Under the pieces are notes generated by a model. That model had not been told where the DNA came from. It worked only from the letters and a program-made list of their open reading frames with translations, and did not search any database. Of a stretch of 2,432 bases of DNA, positions 82 through 2,416 are shown in pieces. The position numbers and the translations under genes were made by a program. This DNA is from Naegleria gruberi (Eukaryota): the NCBI GenBank assembly GCA_000004985.1, contig GG739262.1, one strand, 5' to 3'. The first letter of the stretch is position 1. Each line of letters starts with the position of its first letter.

Positions 82-108
82 AAGAATAAGAGCTTGTTTT
101 TGTAGGTT

Positions 109-120
109 GTATTATTTATG
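109..120 (+). promoter_or_regulatory. TATA-like upstream element (GTATTATTTATG) at about -35 to -25 relative to the 5S rRNA +1
   Basis: Seen in sequence. Upstream TATA-like elements at about -30 are known for 5S/Pol III genes in fungi, insects and several protists. Position is consistent but the motif is low-complexity in AT-rich DNA. Confidence 0.3.
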
Positions 121-143
121 ATTAAGATTTTTATTAATTGAAT

Positions 144-263
144 GGCTACGGCCATATCACGATGAATGCACCTCATCCCGTCCGATTTGAGAAGTTAAGC
201 ATCGTCGAGCCACATCAGTATTGAGGTTGGAGACAAATTGGGAACTGTGGTGCTGTAGTCTTT
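144..263 (+). rRNA. 5S ribosomal RNA gene (eukaryotic nuclear type, about 120 nt)
   Basis: GGCTACGGCCATATCACGATGAATGCACCTCATCCCGTCCGATTTGAGAAGTTAAGCATCGTCGAGCC…GGTTGGAGACAAATTGGGAAC…GGTGCTGTAGTCTT aligns without gaps, position by position, to vertebrate and yeast 5S rRNA. Shared blocks include GGCCATA(C/T)C, CCCGTCCGAT, AAGTTAAGC, GAGCC, TGGGAGAC/TTGGAGAC and TGGGAA. The 5' GGCUACGG pairs with the 3' CUGUAGUC to form helix I (8 bp, 2 G·U). The gene ends directly in a T-run. Confidence 0.9.
193..240 (+). promoter_or_regulatory. 5S internal control region (box A about 193-207, intermediate element, box C about 223-240) for TFIIIA/TFIIIC
   Basis: Placed by ungapped alignment to Xenopus somatic 5S numbering (box A at +50-64, box C at +80-97). 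Box C GAGGTTGGAGACAAATTG corresponds to TGGATGGGAGACCGCCTG. Established knowledge of Pol III type-1 promoters. Confidence 0.5.
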
Positions 264-277
264 TTGTTTTACGTTTT
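260..277 (+). terminator. RNA polymerase III terminator: T5 (261-265) followed by back-up T4 runs (267-270, 274-277)
   Basis: CTTTTTGTTTTACGTTTT lies immediately at the 3' end of the 5S sequence. Runs of four or more T are the canonical Pol III termination signal. Confidence 0.8.
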
Positions 278-599
278 ATTACTAACTGTACCATTCTATT
301 TACATGGTTGTGAGTTGCATATTTCCACAATATTGAAAGAGCTATCCTGTGTAACCTTACTCATTGACTGGTCCATTCTAGTTCTATATCCTTTTACCAC
401 ACAGTGAATGCAAACAATTCTTTTATTTTCTATTTAGAGACATTTTCATTACAAGATTCAAATTGATTAGTTAATGTTAACAATTCTTAATGGTAGAGAC
501 ATCAACCATTCCCTAGGATTCTATTCTTTGTGATTAATATTGCAAATAAAGATATATTGAAAAAGAATTGATGTGATTAATTCAGGCGTGTTGGAACCA

Positions 600-615
600 C
601 CAACCAATTGGTTGG
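600..615. repeat. 16-bp perfect palindrome CCAACCAATTGGTTGG (overlapping inverted CCAAT boxes) inside a 49% GC island (about 581-660)
   Basis: Seen in sequence: identical to its own reverse complement. The symmetry breaks at 599/616. Lies about 85-100 bp upstream of the ORF1 ATG. Confidence 0.6.
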
Positions 616-669
616 GAGATGAAAGGTTTCGCATAAAGGCTGCAAGAATGATGCTGGCCTTTACAATAA

Positions 670-690
670 GCATATTTAAATAAATAATAC
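670..690 (+). promoter_or_regulatory. TATA-like core promoter element GCATATTTAAATAAATAAT, 8-28 bp upstream of the ORF1 ATG
   Basis: TATTTAAA at 674-681. A very short leader is implied. The same GCATATTTAAA 11-mer occurs on the minus strand upstream of the HMG-box ORF (2389-2379). Confidence 0.4.
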
Positions 691-697
691 TCTTATT

Positions 698-1714
698 ATG
701 AAACTCAGAGTTTCTTCTTCAAAACTTAGAACATTGCAGAACTTTGTAAAAAAAATGCAAGACGATTGTTCAGAGTGTTGTGTGATTATTTCTCTCATTG
801 ATCACAATCCTTCCCTACAGCAGCACGATGCCCTGTTCGACAAATTTAAAATTCATATGAGAAGTTATCGGAATCGTGTACCATTTTCAATGAAGTTTGA
901 AGAGATTAATAGTATCACGTCGATCGAACATAAATTTCACTATCCTTCCCATGCCAAGGTTTCTCACTCACACAATTGTTTGTGTATCTCTTCAAATTCT
1001 GCAGTGAAATTTTTTGATTTGACTAATCATGAATATTTGGGCGCCTTTTTTGTTGAAGGAGGAGTGACTTGCTTGTTAATTGAAGAGAATTTTGATCATC
1101 AACAAAATGATGCTATTTATTTTGGAGAGAATATGTATACTTTTAAATATAGAGTGAAGGATTTAATGAGATTAGGATCAAGTGCTGATTGTATTTGGAA
1201 AATTGAAAGAAATCATTTGTATGGAATGGCAATTAGAACGATTGGAAATCAGAAACAATTATTCAGATTTAGTGATTCTAAAGGAGCTATGGATATAATA
1301 GATACTGTGAATGGAAAGGTCATTAAAGAGTTGAAACTTGAAAAAATCAAAACAGTGACGGATATTATTTTCATCAATCCAAAAAGAATGCTTGTTGCTG
1401 AACTTTTTTATAATACATGTTTTATTTATGATGAAATGAACGAAAATGAATGGAAATTGATACATACAATTGAAGAGGCAGAGAATATTCATTTTAGTCA
1501 ACCATTAGGATTGGCGATTGACAGAAAAGGAGGGAAAATATTTCTTTCAGATTATGACAATAAGAGAATTGTTGTATTTAATGAGAGTTTAGACTTGCTT
1601 TCTTGTCATTATCCATTGAAATCTCTGAATCCATATGGTCTTGATTTTGATGAACGAACAGGATTACTCTATATTACTGATCAACAAGATCACTCCATTA
1701 GAATATTTAAATAG
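698..1714 (+). CDS. NHL-repeat (beta-propeller) domain protein, 338 aa, intronless
   Basis: ATG at 698 is preceded by an in-frame TAA four codons upstream. The frame is open for 338 codons and ends in TAG at 1712-1714. The C-terminal half carries NHL-type blades: PLGLAIDRKGGKIFLSDYDNKRIVVFNE and PYGLDFDERTGLLYITDQQDHSIRIF match the NHL consensus (G-a-a-d-x-x-G-x-hyd-hyd-V-x-D-x-x-N-x-R-I-x-x-F). Earlier segments (NDAIYFGENMYTFKYRV, AMDIIDTVNGKVIKEL, VTDIIFINPKRMLVAELFYNTCFIYD) look like further blades. Alternative start at Met20 (ATG 755-757, preceded by an A8 run). Confidence 0.75.
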   Translation: MKLRVSSSKLRTLQNFVKKMQDDCSECCVIISLIDHNPSLQQHDALFDKFKIHMRSYRNRVPFSMKFEEINSITSIEHKFHYPSHAKVSHSHNCLCISSNSAVKFFDLTNHEYLGAFFVEGGVTCLLIEENFDHQQNDAIYFGENMYTFKYRVKDLMRLGSSADCIWKIERNHLYGMAIRTIGNQKQLFRFSDSKGAMDIIDTVNGKVIKELKLEKIKTVTDIIFINPKRMLVAELFYNTCFIYDEMNENEWKLIHTIEEAENIHFSQPLGLAIDRKGGKIFLSDYDNKRIVVFNESLDLLSCHYPLKSLNPYGLDFDERTGLLYITDQQDHSIRIFK

Positions 1715-1759
1715 ATATGCCAATTTATTGGATCAATAATGTTAATTCTTGCCATCCTC

Positions 1760-2416
1760 TTATTCACTAACATTTTCATCTAATCCACTAATACAATAAA
1801 TGAATTCTTCTTTTTGTTTTTGATATTTCAATTTTTCTTGAATTGCTTGTTCAACATAAATTTGCTTTTCATTATCATCCATTTCTTTCCAAATGTGTGC
1901 CATTTTTTTAATAATATCCATATTAGTTATTGTAGGATTTTCTTGTTTAATTTTTTCTCTTTCACTCCTGACAAACATCATGAATTCTGTTAGTGGCCTT
2001 TTAATTAGTAGTTTCTTCTTTTTTTCTACTAATTTTGGAAATAATCCACACATTACATCACACAACACTTGTTGGTCTTGTTTTTTGTCAAGTTGTGGAA
2101 GGACTTTAGTGATCCTTTCCTTGTCAAATCCAAATTTAATATTGTTCATAATCTCAATGTTGTCAAGAATTAATCTTTTACGAATGGATCTTAATACATA
2201 TGGTATTCCATCATCATTAAAAAATAACATTGTCTTTTCATTGATTTCAAATATATTACTGGATAATAATTTTGATAGTTTCCACTTTTTCAATAAATTA
2301 TTTAATTTAAATACTTTTGAATCATCTAATGGTTTTAATAATGATTCAGTTACACTCCAAATTGCAGAATCAATATCTTTTAAATATGCAATTAGTGTTA
2401 GAAATCGTTGTAAAAA
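1760..2416 (-). CDS. HMG-box DNA-binding protein. Open frame 1760-2416 with unresolved start (the track's start at 2293 is a TTG; the first in-frame ATG is at 2230-2228)
   Basis: The C-terminal KRPLTEFMMFVRSEREKIKQENPTITNMDIIKKMAHIWKEMDDNEKQIYVEQAIQEKLKYQKQKEEF is a canonical HMG box (KRP…F…R…NP…I.K.…WK.…EK..Y…A…K..Y). Stop TAA at 1762-1760. Own minus-strand translation shows the frame stays open 41 codons beyond 2293 (FLQRFLTLIAYLKDIDSAIWSVTESLLKPLDDSKVFKLNNL-) to an in-frame TAA at 2419-2417, with no ATG in that stretch. Confidence 0.75.
   Translation of the reverse strand, partial: FLQRFLTLIAYLKDIDSAIWSVTESLLKPLDDSKVFKLNNLLKKWKLSKLLSSNIFEINEKTMLFFNDDGIPYVLRSIRKRLILDNIEIMNNIKFGFDKERITKVLPQLDKKQDQQVLCDVMCGLFPKLVEKKKKLLIKRPLTEFMMFVRSEREKIKQENPTITNMDIIKKMAHIWKEMDDNEKQIYVEQAIQEKLKYQKQKEEFIYCISGLDENVSE

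What the first reader, a model, noticed from the sequence alone, without database searches (positions are those of the whole stretch)
581..664. GC-rich island with a 16-bp perfect palindrome of back-to-back CCAAT boxes upstream of the NHL gene
CCAACCAATTGGTTGG (600-615) is a perfect palindrome embedded in about 80 bp of 49% GC. This is striking against the ~20-25% GC of the rest of the 435-bp spacer. It contains CCAAT and its inverse ATTGG sharing the central AATT, the arrangement expected for a dimeric or bidirectionally read NF-Y/CBF-type site. A second CCAAT-TT-ATTGG inverted repeat sits in the 45-bp convergent spacer (1720-1731), and CCAATT recurs at the window edge (2425-2430). A 7-bp hairpin (TAAAGGC 634-640 / GCCTTTA 657-663, 16-nt loop) follows just before the TATA-like element. 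Together these look like a structured upstream control module rather than random AT-rich spacer. The island could also be a short structured ncRNA of unknown class.
Basis: seen in the sequence. Interest (0 to 1): 0.5.

Follow-up and report, generated by a model that had tools for sequence, protein, structure and literature searches.

The report
Probable promoter palindrome, Naegleria NHL gene
An 84-bp GC-rich patch with a perfect 16-bp CCAAT/ATTGG palindrome lies just upstream of a Naegleria gruberi NHL-repeat gene; it is most likely an ordinary promoter-proximal binding site, most of its "striking" details occur at chance level, and no test showed it to be a small RNA gene.

Summary
The window is a 2.4-kb Naegleria gruberi scaffold carrying a 5S rRNA gene (144-261), a 436-bp spacer, an NHL-repeat gene (likely true start ATG 755) and a convergent HMG-box gene.

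**What holds up**
- The GC island is unusual: 47.6% GC against 28.5% for the rest of the spacer, P about 0.008.
- One independent observation supports a promoter motif. A 49%-identical paralogue locus (L001) has a perfect CCAATATTGG about 250 bp upstream of its start (P about 0.01).

**What does not**
- A perfect palindrome of 16 bp or more appears in 10% of shuffled windows.
- CCAAT/ATTGG is not enriched (9 observed, 7.4 expected).
- 7-bp hairpins are at expectation (8 observed, 8.4 expected).
- The second CCAAT pair (1720-1731) lies between two stop codons and is broken in a 95.5%-identical relative.
- Two NF-Y trimers cannot share overlapping boxes.

**Alternatives tested without support**
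- Small RNA: no Rfam family, no snoRNA boxes, no tRNA.
- Coding remnant: no credible homologue.
- 5S-linked unit: absent from the one related 5S locus recovered (L002).

**Verdict:** a probable Pol II promoter-proximal element (confidence about 0.4), with neutral sequence a close rival. The N. gruberi genome could not be searched, so the motif-enrichment and conservation tests remain undone. Interest is low.

The parts
581..664 (.). GC-rich island: 47.6% GC, set in a spacer of 28.5% GC upstream and 12% GC downstream
   Evidence: Only 0.8% of spacer shuffles reach the same maximum GC count in 84 bp.
600..615 (.). Perfect 16-bp palindrome CCAACCAATTGGTTGG, i.e. (CCAA)2(TTGG)2. CCAAT (604-608) and ATTGG (607-611) overlap within it.
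   Evidence: A palindrome of this length or more occurs in 10% of window shuffles.
634..663 (+). Hairpin TAAAGGC / GCCTTTA with a 16-nt loop. Judged to be at chance level.
   Evidence: Seen in the fold. 7-bp hairpins number 8 observed against 8.4 expected in shuffles.
673..682 (+). TATA-like palindrome TATTTAAATA, 73-82 bp upstream of ATG 755. Its function is inferred, not shown.
   Evidence: The same 10-mer recurs at 1704-1713 across the NHL stop codon.
755..1714 (+). NHL-repeat gene (N. gruberi NAEGRDRAFT_76933), the presumed regulated gene. ATG 755 is the conserved start; the ORF is open from ATG 698.
   Evidence: P0001 and P0008 both start MQDDCSE, and P0002 has an aligned internal Met.
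1720..1731 (.). Second CCAAT-TT-ATTGG pair in the 45-bp gap between the two stop codons. Listed only because the finding cites it; judged not to be part of a control module.
   Evidence: It is not conserved in L005, which reads CCAA-TTATTGT, and homology with L005 ends at 1730.

Best explanation
The island is a promoter-proximal upstream element of the RNA polymerase II promoter of the NHL-repeat gene. The palindrome is its core protein-binding site.

**Proposed mechanism**
- The palindrome presents a CCAAT box readable on either strand, about 70 bp upstream of the TATA-like TATTTAAATA and roughly 100 bp upstream of the inferred transcription start.
- It would be bound either by one CCAAT-binding complex of the NF-Y type in either orientation, or by an unidentified dimeric factor.
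- Binding would help open or activate the promoter.

**Shown**
- The sequence, its composition, and its position relative to the gene.
- A comparable CCAAT|ATTGG palindrome upstream of one paralogue.

**Inferred**
- The transcription start site, the function of the TATA-like element, the identity of any binding protein, and any effect on transcription.
For: - **Position.** The island spans -174 to -91 relative to the conserved start ATG 755 and ends 9 bp before TATTTAAATA. The start is supported by the identical N-termini of P0001 and P0008 and by the aligned Met of P0002.
- **Composition.** A GC-rich patch in an AT-rich spacer, P about 0.008.
- **Independent paralogue test.** L001 is the locus of a 49%-identical family member (P0004, clustered at 90% or more with N. 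gruberi NAEGRDRAFT_52433). It has a perfect CCAATATTGG at 3663-3672, about 250 bp upstream of the start-equivalent. Nothing else is shared between the two upstream regions. P is about 0.008-0.011 for 300 bp.
- **DNA-level rather than RNA-level.** The L001 palindrome region has no predicted RNA structure (z = +1.0), so whatever is shared is a DNA motif.
- **Site quality.** Both reading directions give RRCCAAT (sequence).
Against: - The palindrome length is unremarkable (10% of shuffles), and CCAAT/ATTGG is not enriched in the window.
- The free choice of 5-mer removes the significance of the recurrent pair.
- The support from L001 is a single data point. It sits at a different distance (about 250 against 148 bp) and has a different spacing (0 against -2).
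- The third pair, at 1720-1731, is not in a promoter and is not conserved in L005.
- The base 3' of CCAAT is T or A, which NF-Y disfavours (own knowledge).
- Overlapping boxes cannot hold two NF-Y trimers (PMC4889920).
- Eighty-four bp of raised GC is more than one binding site needs.
- No transcription start data, no binding data and no genome-wide motif count were available.
Confidence: 0.4

Rival explanations
1. Neutral sequence. The patch is a chance compositional fluctuation or the decayed remnant of something older, such as a repeat or slippage product of CCAA/TTGG tetramers, with no present function.
For: - Palindrome, hairpin and CCAAT counts are all at chance level.
- The palindrome is simply (CCAA)2(TTGG)2 preceded by TTGGAACCA, so it is low-complexity.
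- Nothing matched the 22-mer around the palindrome in metagenome contigs.
- The neighbouring CCAAT pair decays freely in a close relative.
- Shuffle tests understate natural compositional patchiness, so P = 0.008 is optimistic.
Against: - The GC island is the most GC-rich 84 bp of the spacer by a wide margin, next to a 12% GC stretch.
- A paralogue has a CCAAT|ATTGG palindrome upstream as well (P about 0.01).
- The spacer shows no pseudogene or coding-remnant signal.
Confidence: 0.35
2. An unannotated small structured RNA gene of about 85-105 nt, on either strand. The minus-strand version would start about 30 nt downstream of the TATTTAAATA box read in reverse and end at the T5 run at 565-561, as a Pol III transcript would.
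For: - Its GC content (47.6%) matches that of the 5S gene (49.2%) and is far above the coding regions here (26-31%).
- 581-670 has the lowest folding z-score of 79 sliding windows, about -2.7 on both strands. 575-675 gives z = -2.17 on the plus strand.
- There is a T5 run on the minus strand just downstream, and AT-rich TATA-like sequence on both sides.
Against: - No Rfam family matches, even at E up to 10 on a 171-nt slice. The best hit is a C/D model at 16 bits, and the window lacks the D box.
- There is no C box plus D box combination on either strand, no pseudouridylation pocket, and no Sm site, U1, U2, U4, U5 or U6 motif, or A/B boxes (and reading).
- ARAGORN finds no tRNA.
- Equal z-scores on both strands point to DNA inverted repeats rather than a strand-specific RNA. 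A z of -2.7 is about what the minimum of 158 tests gives.
- The plus strand has no T-run terminator.
- No homologue was found in metagenomes.
- The paralogue's palindrome region is unstructured.
Confidence: 0.12
3. A structured 5' leader of the NHL mRNA. Transcription would start near 581-586, about 30 nt downstream of GATATATTG (550-558). The island would then form a folded 5' UTR carrying two short upstream ORFs (ATG 619 and ATG 649) that dampen translation.
For: - A TATA-like ATATAT lies 29-34 nt upstream of 586.
- The plus strand folds at -28.4 kcal/mol, z = -2.17.
- Two short upstream ORFs lie within the island: ATG 619, encoding MKGFA, and ATG 649, encoding MMLAFTISIFK.
Against: - TATA-like strings are everywhere in this AT-rich spacer.
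- The better-placed TATTTAAATA lies downstream of the island.
- The paralogues' N-terminal extensions upstream of the conserved Met are unrelated, and no leader conservation could be examined.
Confidence: 0.08
4. Part of a repeat unit that travels with the dispersed 5S rRNA genes, or a second, degenerate Pol III gene behind a 5S-like upstream element (514-541 resembles 103-129).
For: - N. gruberi has 279 dispersed 5S copies (PMC3369914).
- 103-129, upstream of the 5S gene, matches 514-541 at 23 of 28 positions.
Against: - That match has P about 0.06.
- The upstream element is not conserved in the closest 5S locus, L002. Homology there covers only the gene and about 22 nt of trailer, and nothing resembling the island lies in the 538 bp downstream.
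- The island has no 5S similarity.
- The spacing from the element to the island (45 nt) differs from that at the 5S gene (15 nt).
Confidence: 0.03

Closest known systems
CCAAT box bound by NF-Y (HAP2/3/5, CBF)
   Same: - A CCAAT pentamer preceded by two purines, on both strands.
- Located some 70 bp upstream of a TATA-like element, the classical zone for CCAAT boxes.
- Works in either orientation.
   Different: - The two boxes overlap by sharing AATT. NF-Y covers 25-28 bp, and co-bound boxes lie 24-28 or 35-37 bp apart (PMC4889920), so this cannot be a double NF-Y site.
- The base after CCAAT is T, which NF-Y disfavours.
- I could not confirm that N. gruberi has NF-Y subunits.
- No positional enrichment could be tested.
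Palindromic sites of dimeric transcription factors (for example the plant HD-Zip site CAAT(N)ATTG)
   Same: A perfect inverted repeat of CAAT-containing half-sites. A similar back-to-back arrangement lies upstream of a paralogue.
   Different: - The three observed pairs have spacings of -2, 0 and +2, whereas a dimer normally demands one fixed spacing.
- HD-Zip proteins are plant-specific.
- No candidate Naegleria factor is known.
G/C-rich regulatory boxes in AT-rich protist promoters (for example Dictyostelium G-box or CAE elements; own knowledge)
   Same: A short GC-rich patch embedded in very AT-rich intergenic DNA close to a gene start.
   Different: There is no sequence relationship, and no functional data exist for Naegleria promoters.
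Box C/D snoRNA (weak Rfam hit to ceN109, RF01613)
   Same: Similar size (about 62 nt aligned). GAUGA-like and AUGAUGC strings align to the C and C' boxes.
   Different: - The score is 16 bits against a gathering score of 52.
- The D box CUGA is missing and D' reads CUGC.
- There is no terminal stem.

Membership tests
NF-Y / CCAAT-box promoter element | CCAAT core with the preferred flanks RRCCAAT(C/G)(A/G) | tested here: inconclusive
   The core and the 5' purines are present on both strands (AACCAAT). The 3' base is T, which is not preferred (sequence; consensus from own knowledge).
NF-Y / CCAAT-box promoter element | Position about 60-100 bp upstream of the transcription start | tested here: inconclusive
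   The palindrome centre is 70 bp upstream of the centre of TATTTAAATA and 148 bp upstream of ATG 755. The start site is not known.
NF-Y / CCAAT-box promoter element | Two boxes read by two trimers, the 'dimeric' reading | tested here: not met
   The boxes overlap (604-608 and 607-611). NF-Y contacts 25-28 bp, and co-bound boxes are 24-28 or 35-37 bp apart (PMC4889920).
NF-Y / CCAAT-box promoter element | NF-YA, NF-YB and NF-YC genes present in the organism | not tested
   Literature searches found nothing on Naegleria NF-Y. The protein-search tools cannot filter by organism.
NF-Y / CCAAT-box promoter element | Motif recurs upstream of related genes and is conserved | tested here: inconclusive
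   The paralogue locus L001 has CCAATATTGG about 250 bp upstream (P about 0.01). The 1720-1731 pair is not conserved in L005. The other family loci and the genome were out of reach.
Box C/D snoRNA | C box RUGAUGA near the 5' end, D box CUGA near the 3' end, and a terminal stem | tested here: not met
   The plus strand has no CUGA. The minus strand has CUGA at 585-582 but no C box within one mismatch between 586 and 700. The Rfam hit scores 16 bits against a 52-bit threshold.
Box H/ACA snoRNA | Hairpin with an internal pseudouridylation pocket followed by ACA or AGA 3 nt from the 3' end | tested here: not met
   An ACA at 663-665 follows the 634-663 hairpin. That hairpin has only a 1x2 internal loop and a 30-nt span, so there is no pocket (fold).
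tRNA or other Pol III gene with internal promoter | Cloverleaf fold; A box TRGCNNAGTGG and B box GGTTCGANNCC | tested here: not met
   ARAGORN finds none. There is no A or B box within one mismatch. The best B-box-like string, GGTTCCAACAC on the minus strand at 598-588, has two mismatches.
Any Rfam family | Covariance-model score at or above the gathering threshold | tested here: not met
   Only the 5S gene passes (101 bits). Nothing credible covers 540-710 even at E up to 10.
Protein-coding exon or pseudogene fragment | Translated similarity to a protein family | tested here: not met
   - tblastn of the NHL family against the spacer gives only noise.
- The 50-aa minus-strand ORF has no homologue.
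- The 36-aa plus-strand ORF matches only about 20-aa stretches of two highly repetitive proteins.
- Pfam finds nothing.
5S-linked repeat unit | Same element at the same distance from other 5S copies | tested here: not met
   L002 (5S gene 94% identical) shares only the gene and about 22 nt of trailer. This is one locus only.

The most novel reading that the evidence does not exclude
The island is an unannotated small structured RNA of about 85-105 nt of no described class, in a heterolobosean. It would perhaps be Pol III-transcribed from the minus strand and end at the T5 run at 565-561, beside a dispersed 5S gene. A less exotic version: the back-to-back CCAAT|ATTGG palindrome is the first family-specific promoter motif recognised in Naegleria, shared by the expanded NHL-repeat gene family.
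Probability: 0.12. Interest if true: 0.4.

Novelty: new member of a known kind. Interest (0 to 1): 0.15.

Why it matters
I found almost nothing in the literature on promoter architecture in Naegleria or other Heterolobosea. A verified family-level cis element, or evidence that CCAAT boxes are used there, would be a modest and useful data point on how old this promoter grammar is. As it stands the evidence is thin.

Tried and rejected
**Reaching the N. gruberi genome**
- The look-up of encoding contigs found no record for the window ORF, P0001, P0002 or P0003, nor for the two ORFs that span the island. The 90%-or-more identical paralogue 64796 could therefore not be aligned.

**Metagenome scans**
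- The 22-mer CCACCAACCAATTGGTTGGGAG gave 0 hits.
- A Naegleria 5S 25-mer gave L002, L003 and L004. Only L002 is a close relative, and its flanks are unrelated.

**Decayed NHL paralogue in the spacer**
- I pursued this because 666-686 (ISIFK*) resembles the gene's end (IRIFK*). tblastn and blastn gave only noise.

**Degenerate second 5S gene**
- No 5S similarity was found. The upstream-element match has P about 0.06 and is not conserved in L002.

**Known RNA classes**
- I searched for snRNA (U1, U2, U4, U5, U6), Sm-site, spliced-leader, C/D, H/ACA and A/B-box motifs. None fits.
- Relaxed ARAGORN gave only implausible calls with long introns.

**Other DNA features**
- Helitron-style 3' hairpin plus CTRR end: the distance and the flanking base do not fit (reading).
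- Tandem repeats in the spacer: none.
- Shared k-mers between the two paralogue upstream regions: at chance.

**Literature**
- Nothing was found for the palindrome string, for Naegleria CCAAT or NF-Y, for Naegleria promoters, or for Naegleria small RNAs that bears on this locus.
- PubMed id 17949725, which I recalled as a comparative survey of protist transcription factors, is not held.

Full report
**Source and layout**

The 338-aa ORF at 698-1714 is 100% identical to a Naegleria gruberi predicted protein, NAEGRDRAFT_76933 (P0001). Its only contig is 2432 bp long, so the window is a whole small scaffold. It is probably scaffold_658, which Table S1 of PMC3369914 lists with a 5S gene at 147-262.

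- Rfam finds a full-length 5S rRNA gene at 144-261 on the plus strand (101 bits). A T-run follows it.
- The ORF carries an NHL repeat (Pfam E = 5.6e-9).
- The convergent minus-strand ORF at 1760-2293 is an HMG-box protein (E = 1.2e-18).
- The real start of the NHL gene is most likely ATG 755. P0001 and its 90%-or-more identical paralogue P0008 both begin MQDDCSE, P0002 has a Met at the aligned position, and the sequences upstream of that Met are unrelated.
- The island therefore lies at -174 to -91 from the start codon. It ends 9 bp before a TATA-like TATTTAAATA (673-682).

**Checking the observation**

The composition figures are a little overstated:

|---|---|---|
| 581-664 | 47.6% | 49% |
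| 262-580 | 28.5% | 20-25% |
| 665-697 | 12% | 20-25% |

Comparison with dinucleotide-preserving shuffles:

| Feature | Observed | Expected or P |
|---|---|---|
| Perfect palindrome of 16 bp or more | 1 | present in 10% of shuffled windows |
| CCAAT plus ATTGG | 9 | 7.4 expected, P = 0.33 |
| 7-bp hairpins, loop 3-20 nt | 8 | 8.4 expected |
| Close CCAAT..ATTGG pairs | 2 | 0.076 expected, P = 0.004 |
| GC count of the richest 84 bp in the spacer | 40 | reached in 0.8% of shuffles |

The CCAAT pair was chosen after looking at the sequence. Allowing any 5-mer with at least two G/C, 25% of shuffled windows show such a recurrent inverted pair. Only the GC island stands out, and real genomes are patchier than shuffles, so even that P value is optimistic. 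The palindrome is also simple in make-up: (CCAA)2(TTGG)2, preceded by TTGGAACCA.

**Is it an RNA gene?**

The GC content matches that of the 5S gene (49.2%) and is well above the local coding sequence (26-31%). That is the classic signature of a structural RNA in an AT-rich genome, so I tested this reading hardest.

- *Folding.* 575-675 folds at -28.4 kcal/mol, z = -2.17, on the plus strand, and z = -1.55 on the minus strand. In a sliding scan, 581-670 has z of about -2.7 on both strands, the lowest of 79 windows. That is roughly what the minimum of 158 tests would give. Equal scores on both strands point to DNA inverted repeats rather than a strand-specific RNA.
- *Known families.* Rfam gives nothing for the island, even at E up to 10 on a 171-nt slice. 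The best hit is a nematode C/D snoRNA model at 16 bits against a 52-bit threshold, and the window lacks the D box.
- *Motifs.* Neither strand has a C box together with a D box. There is no pseudouridylation pocket, no Sm site, no snRNA signature and no A/B boxes. ARAGORN finds no tRNA.
- *Points in favour.* A T5 run lies on the minus strand at 565-561, and TATA-like sequence flanks both sides. Both are cheap in DNA this AT-rich.
- *Homologues.* None turned up in metagenome contigs.

**Is it coding, or tied to the 5S gene?**

- The spacer has no similarity to the NHL family.
- The 50-aa minus-strand ORF across the island has no homologue among 5.8 billion proteins.
- The 36-aa plus-strand ORF matches only about 20-residue stretches of two highly repetitive proteins. 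I regard these matches as artefacts of repetition. Pfam finds nothing.
- N. gruberi has 279 dispersed 5S copies (PMC3369914). A scan with a Naegleria 5S 25-mer retrieved one closely related locus, L002. It shares the gene and about 22 nt of trailer with the window and nothing else.
- An upstream-of-5S element (103-129) resembles 514-541 at 23 of 28 positions. The match has P about 0.06 and is not conserved in L002.

**Is it a promoter element?**

The genome itself was out of reach, so the decisive motif-enrichment test could not be run. Two contigs from one ENA sample turned out to come from N. gruberi or a very close relative.

- *L005.* It is 95.5% identical to window 784-1730 and resembles the paralogues P0008 and P0009. 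It starts too late to cover the island. It does cover the second CCAAT pair, which there reads CCAA-TTATTGT, with one arm broken, and homology stops at 1730. That pair also lies between two stop codons. It is therefore not evidence for a control motif.
- *L001.* This is the locus of a 49%-identical family member; P0004 clusters at 90% or more with NAEGRDRAFT_52433. It has a perfect CCAATATTGG at 3663-3672, about 250 bp upstream of the start-equivalent.
  - Shuffles of that upstream region give such a pair with P about 0.008-0.011 for 300 bp, and 0.02-0.03 for the whole 883-bp intergenic region.
  - Nothing else is shared between the two upstream regions.
  - The L001 site has no predicted RNA structure (z = +1.0).

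Against a single dimeric binding mode, the three pairs have spacings of -2, 0 and +2. Against the specific "dimeric NF-Y" reading, NF-Y contacts 25-28 bp, and jointly bound boxes lie 24-28 or 35-37 bp apart (PMC4889920). Overlapping boxes could therefore at most offer one trimer a choice of orientation. I could not establish whether Naegleria has NF-Y.

**Verdict**

| Reading | Confidence |
|---|---|
| Ordinary promoter-proximal cis element of the NHL gene, with the palindrome as its core | about 0.4 |
| Neutral or relic sequence | about 0.35 |
| Small RNA gene | about 0.12 |
| Structured 5' leader | about 0.08 |
| 5S-linked unit | about 0.03 |

Nothing here departs from known kinds of elements, and the interest is low. 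The paralogue palindrome is a cheap lead for anyone with the N. gruberi assembly to hand.

Noticed in passing
window 144-261 (+), T-run 262-266: A complete eukaryotic 5S rRNA gene (Rfam 101 bits). It is one of 279 dispersed copies reported for N. gruberi, and the '435-bp spacer' of the finding starts at its terminator. PMC3369914 Table S1 lists scaffold_658 147-262, probably this window.
   Followed up: yes
window 698-754 versus 755: The NHL ORF is open from ATG 698, but the conserved start is ATG 755, in an A-rich context (aaaaaaATG). Paralogues share the N-terminus only from that Met onward.
   Followed up: partly
window 1730/1731; L005 949/950: Homology between the window and the 95.5%-identical contig L005 stops abruptly 16 bp after the NHL stop codon. 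L005 has no HMG-box gene downstream. This looks like the breakpoint of a recent duplication of the NHL gene. The family has at least six N. gruberi members, three of them 90% or more identical.
   Followed up: partly
L005 2-421 and 449-934: In L005 the NHL reading frame is split into two ORFs. Its first half matches P0008 and its second half matches P0009. It is either a pseudogene or an assembly chimera of close paralogues.
   Followed up: no
window 673-682 and 1704-1713: The 10-bp palindrome TATTTAAATA occurs twice, once upstream of the NHL gene and once across its stop codon. The surrounding 21 nt are 86% identical (666-686 against 1697-1717). It is AT-only, so probably chance.
   Followed up: partly
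L001 5114-5129: A second perfect 16-bp palindrome, AAGGTTGATCAACCTT, lies in the intergenic region upstream of the next gene in the paralogue contig. It uses the same GGTTG/CAACC arms as the window palindrome, but in the opposite (everted) arrangement.
   Followed up: no
window 262-283; L002 538-517: About 22 nt downstream of the 5S terminator (GTTTTAT.ACT) are still alignable between the window and the related 5S locus L002, whereas the upstream flanks are not. This may be a conserved 3' trailer of the dispersed 5S copies.
   Followed up: no
window 103-129 and 514-541: The stretch 15-41 nt upstream of the 5S gene (TAGGTTGTATTATTTATGATTAAGATT) resembles 514-541 at 23 of 28 positions (P about 0.06). 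It is not conserved upstream of the L002 5S gene.
   Followed up: yes
window 1760-2293 (-): An HMG-box protein gene converges on the NHL gene, with only 45 bp between the two stop codons. Its listed ORF starts at a TTG, so the true start or an intron lies further upstream, near the window's end.
   Followed up: no
L001 about 3919-4010: The paralogue locus in the ENA contig has TTG where N. gruberi P0010 has its start Met, and a frame shift before FDQLK. It may be a pseudogene or a divergent strain, which weakens its value as a promoter comparison.
   Followed up: partly
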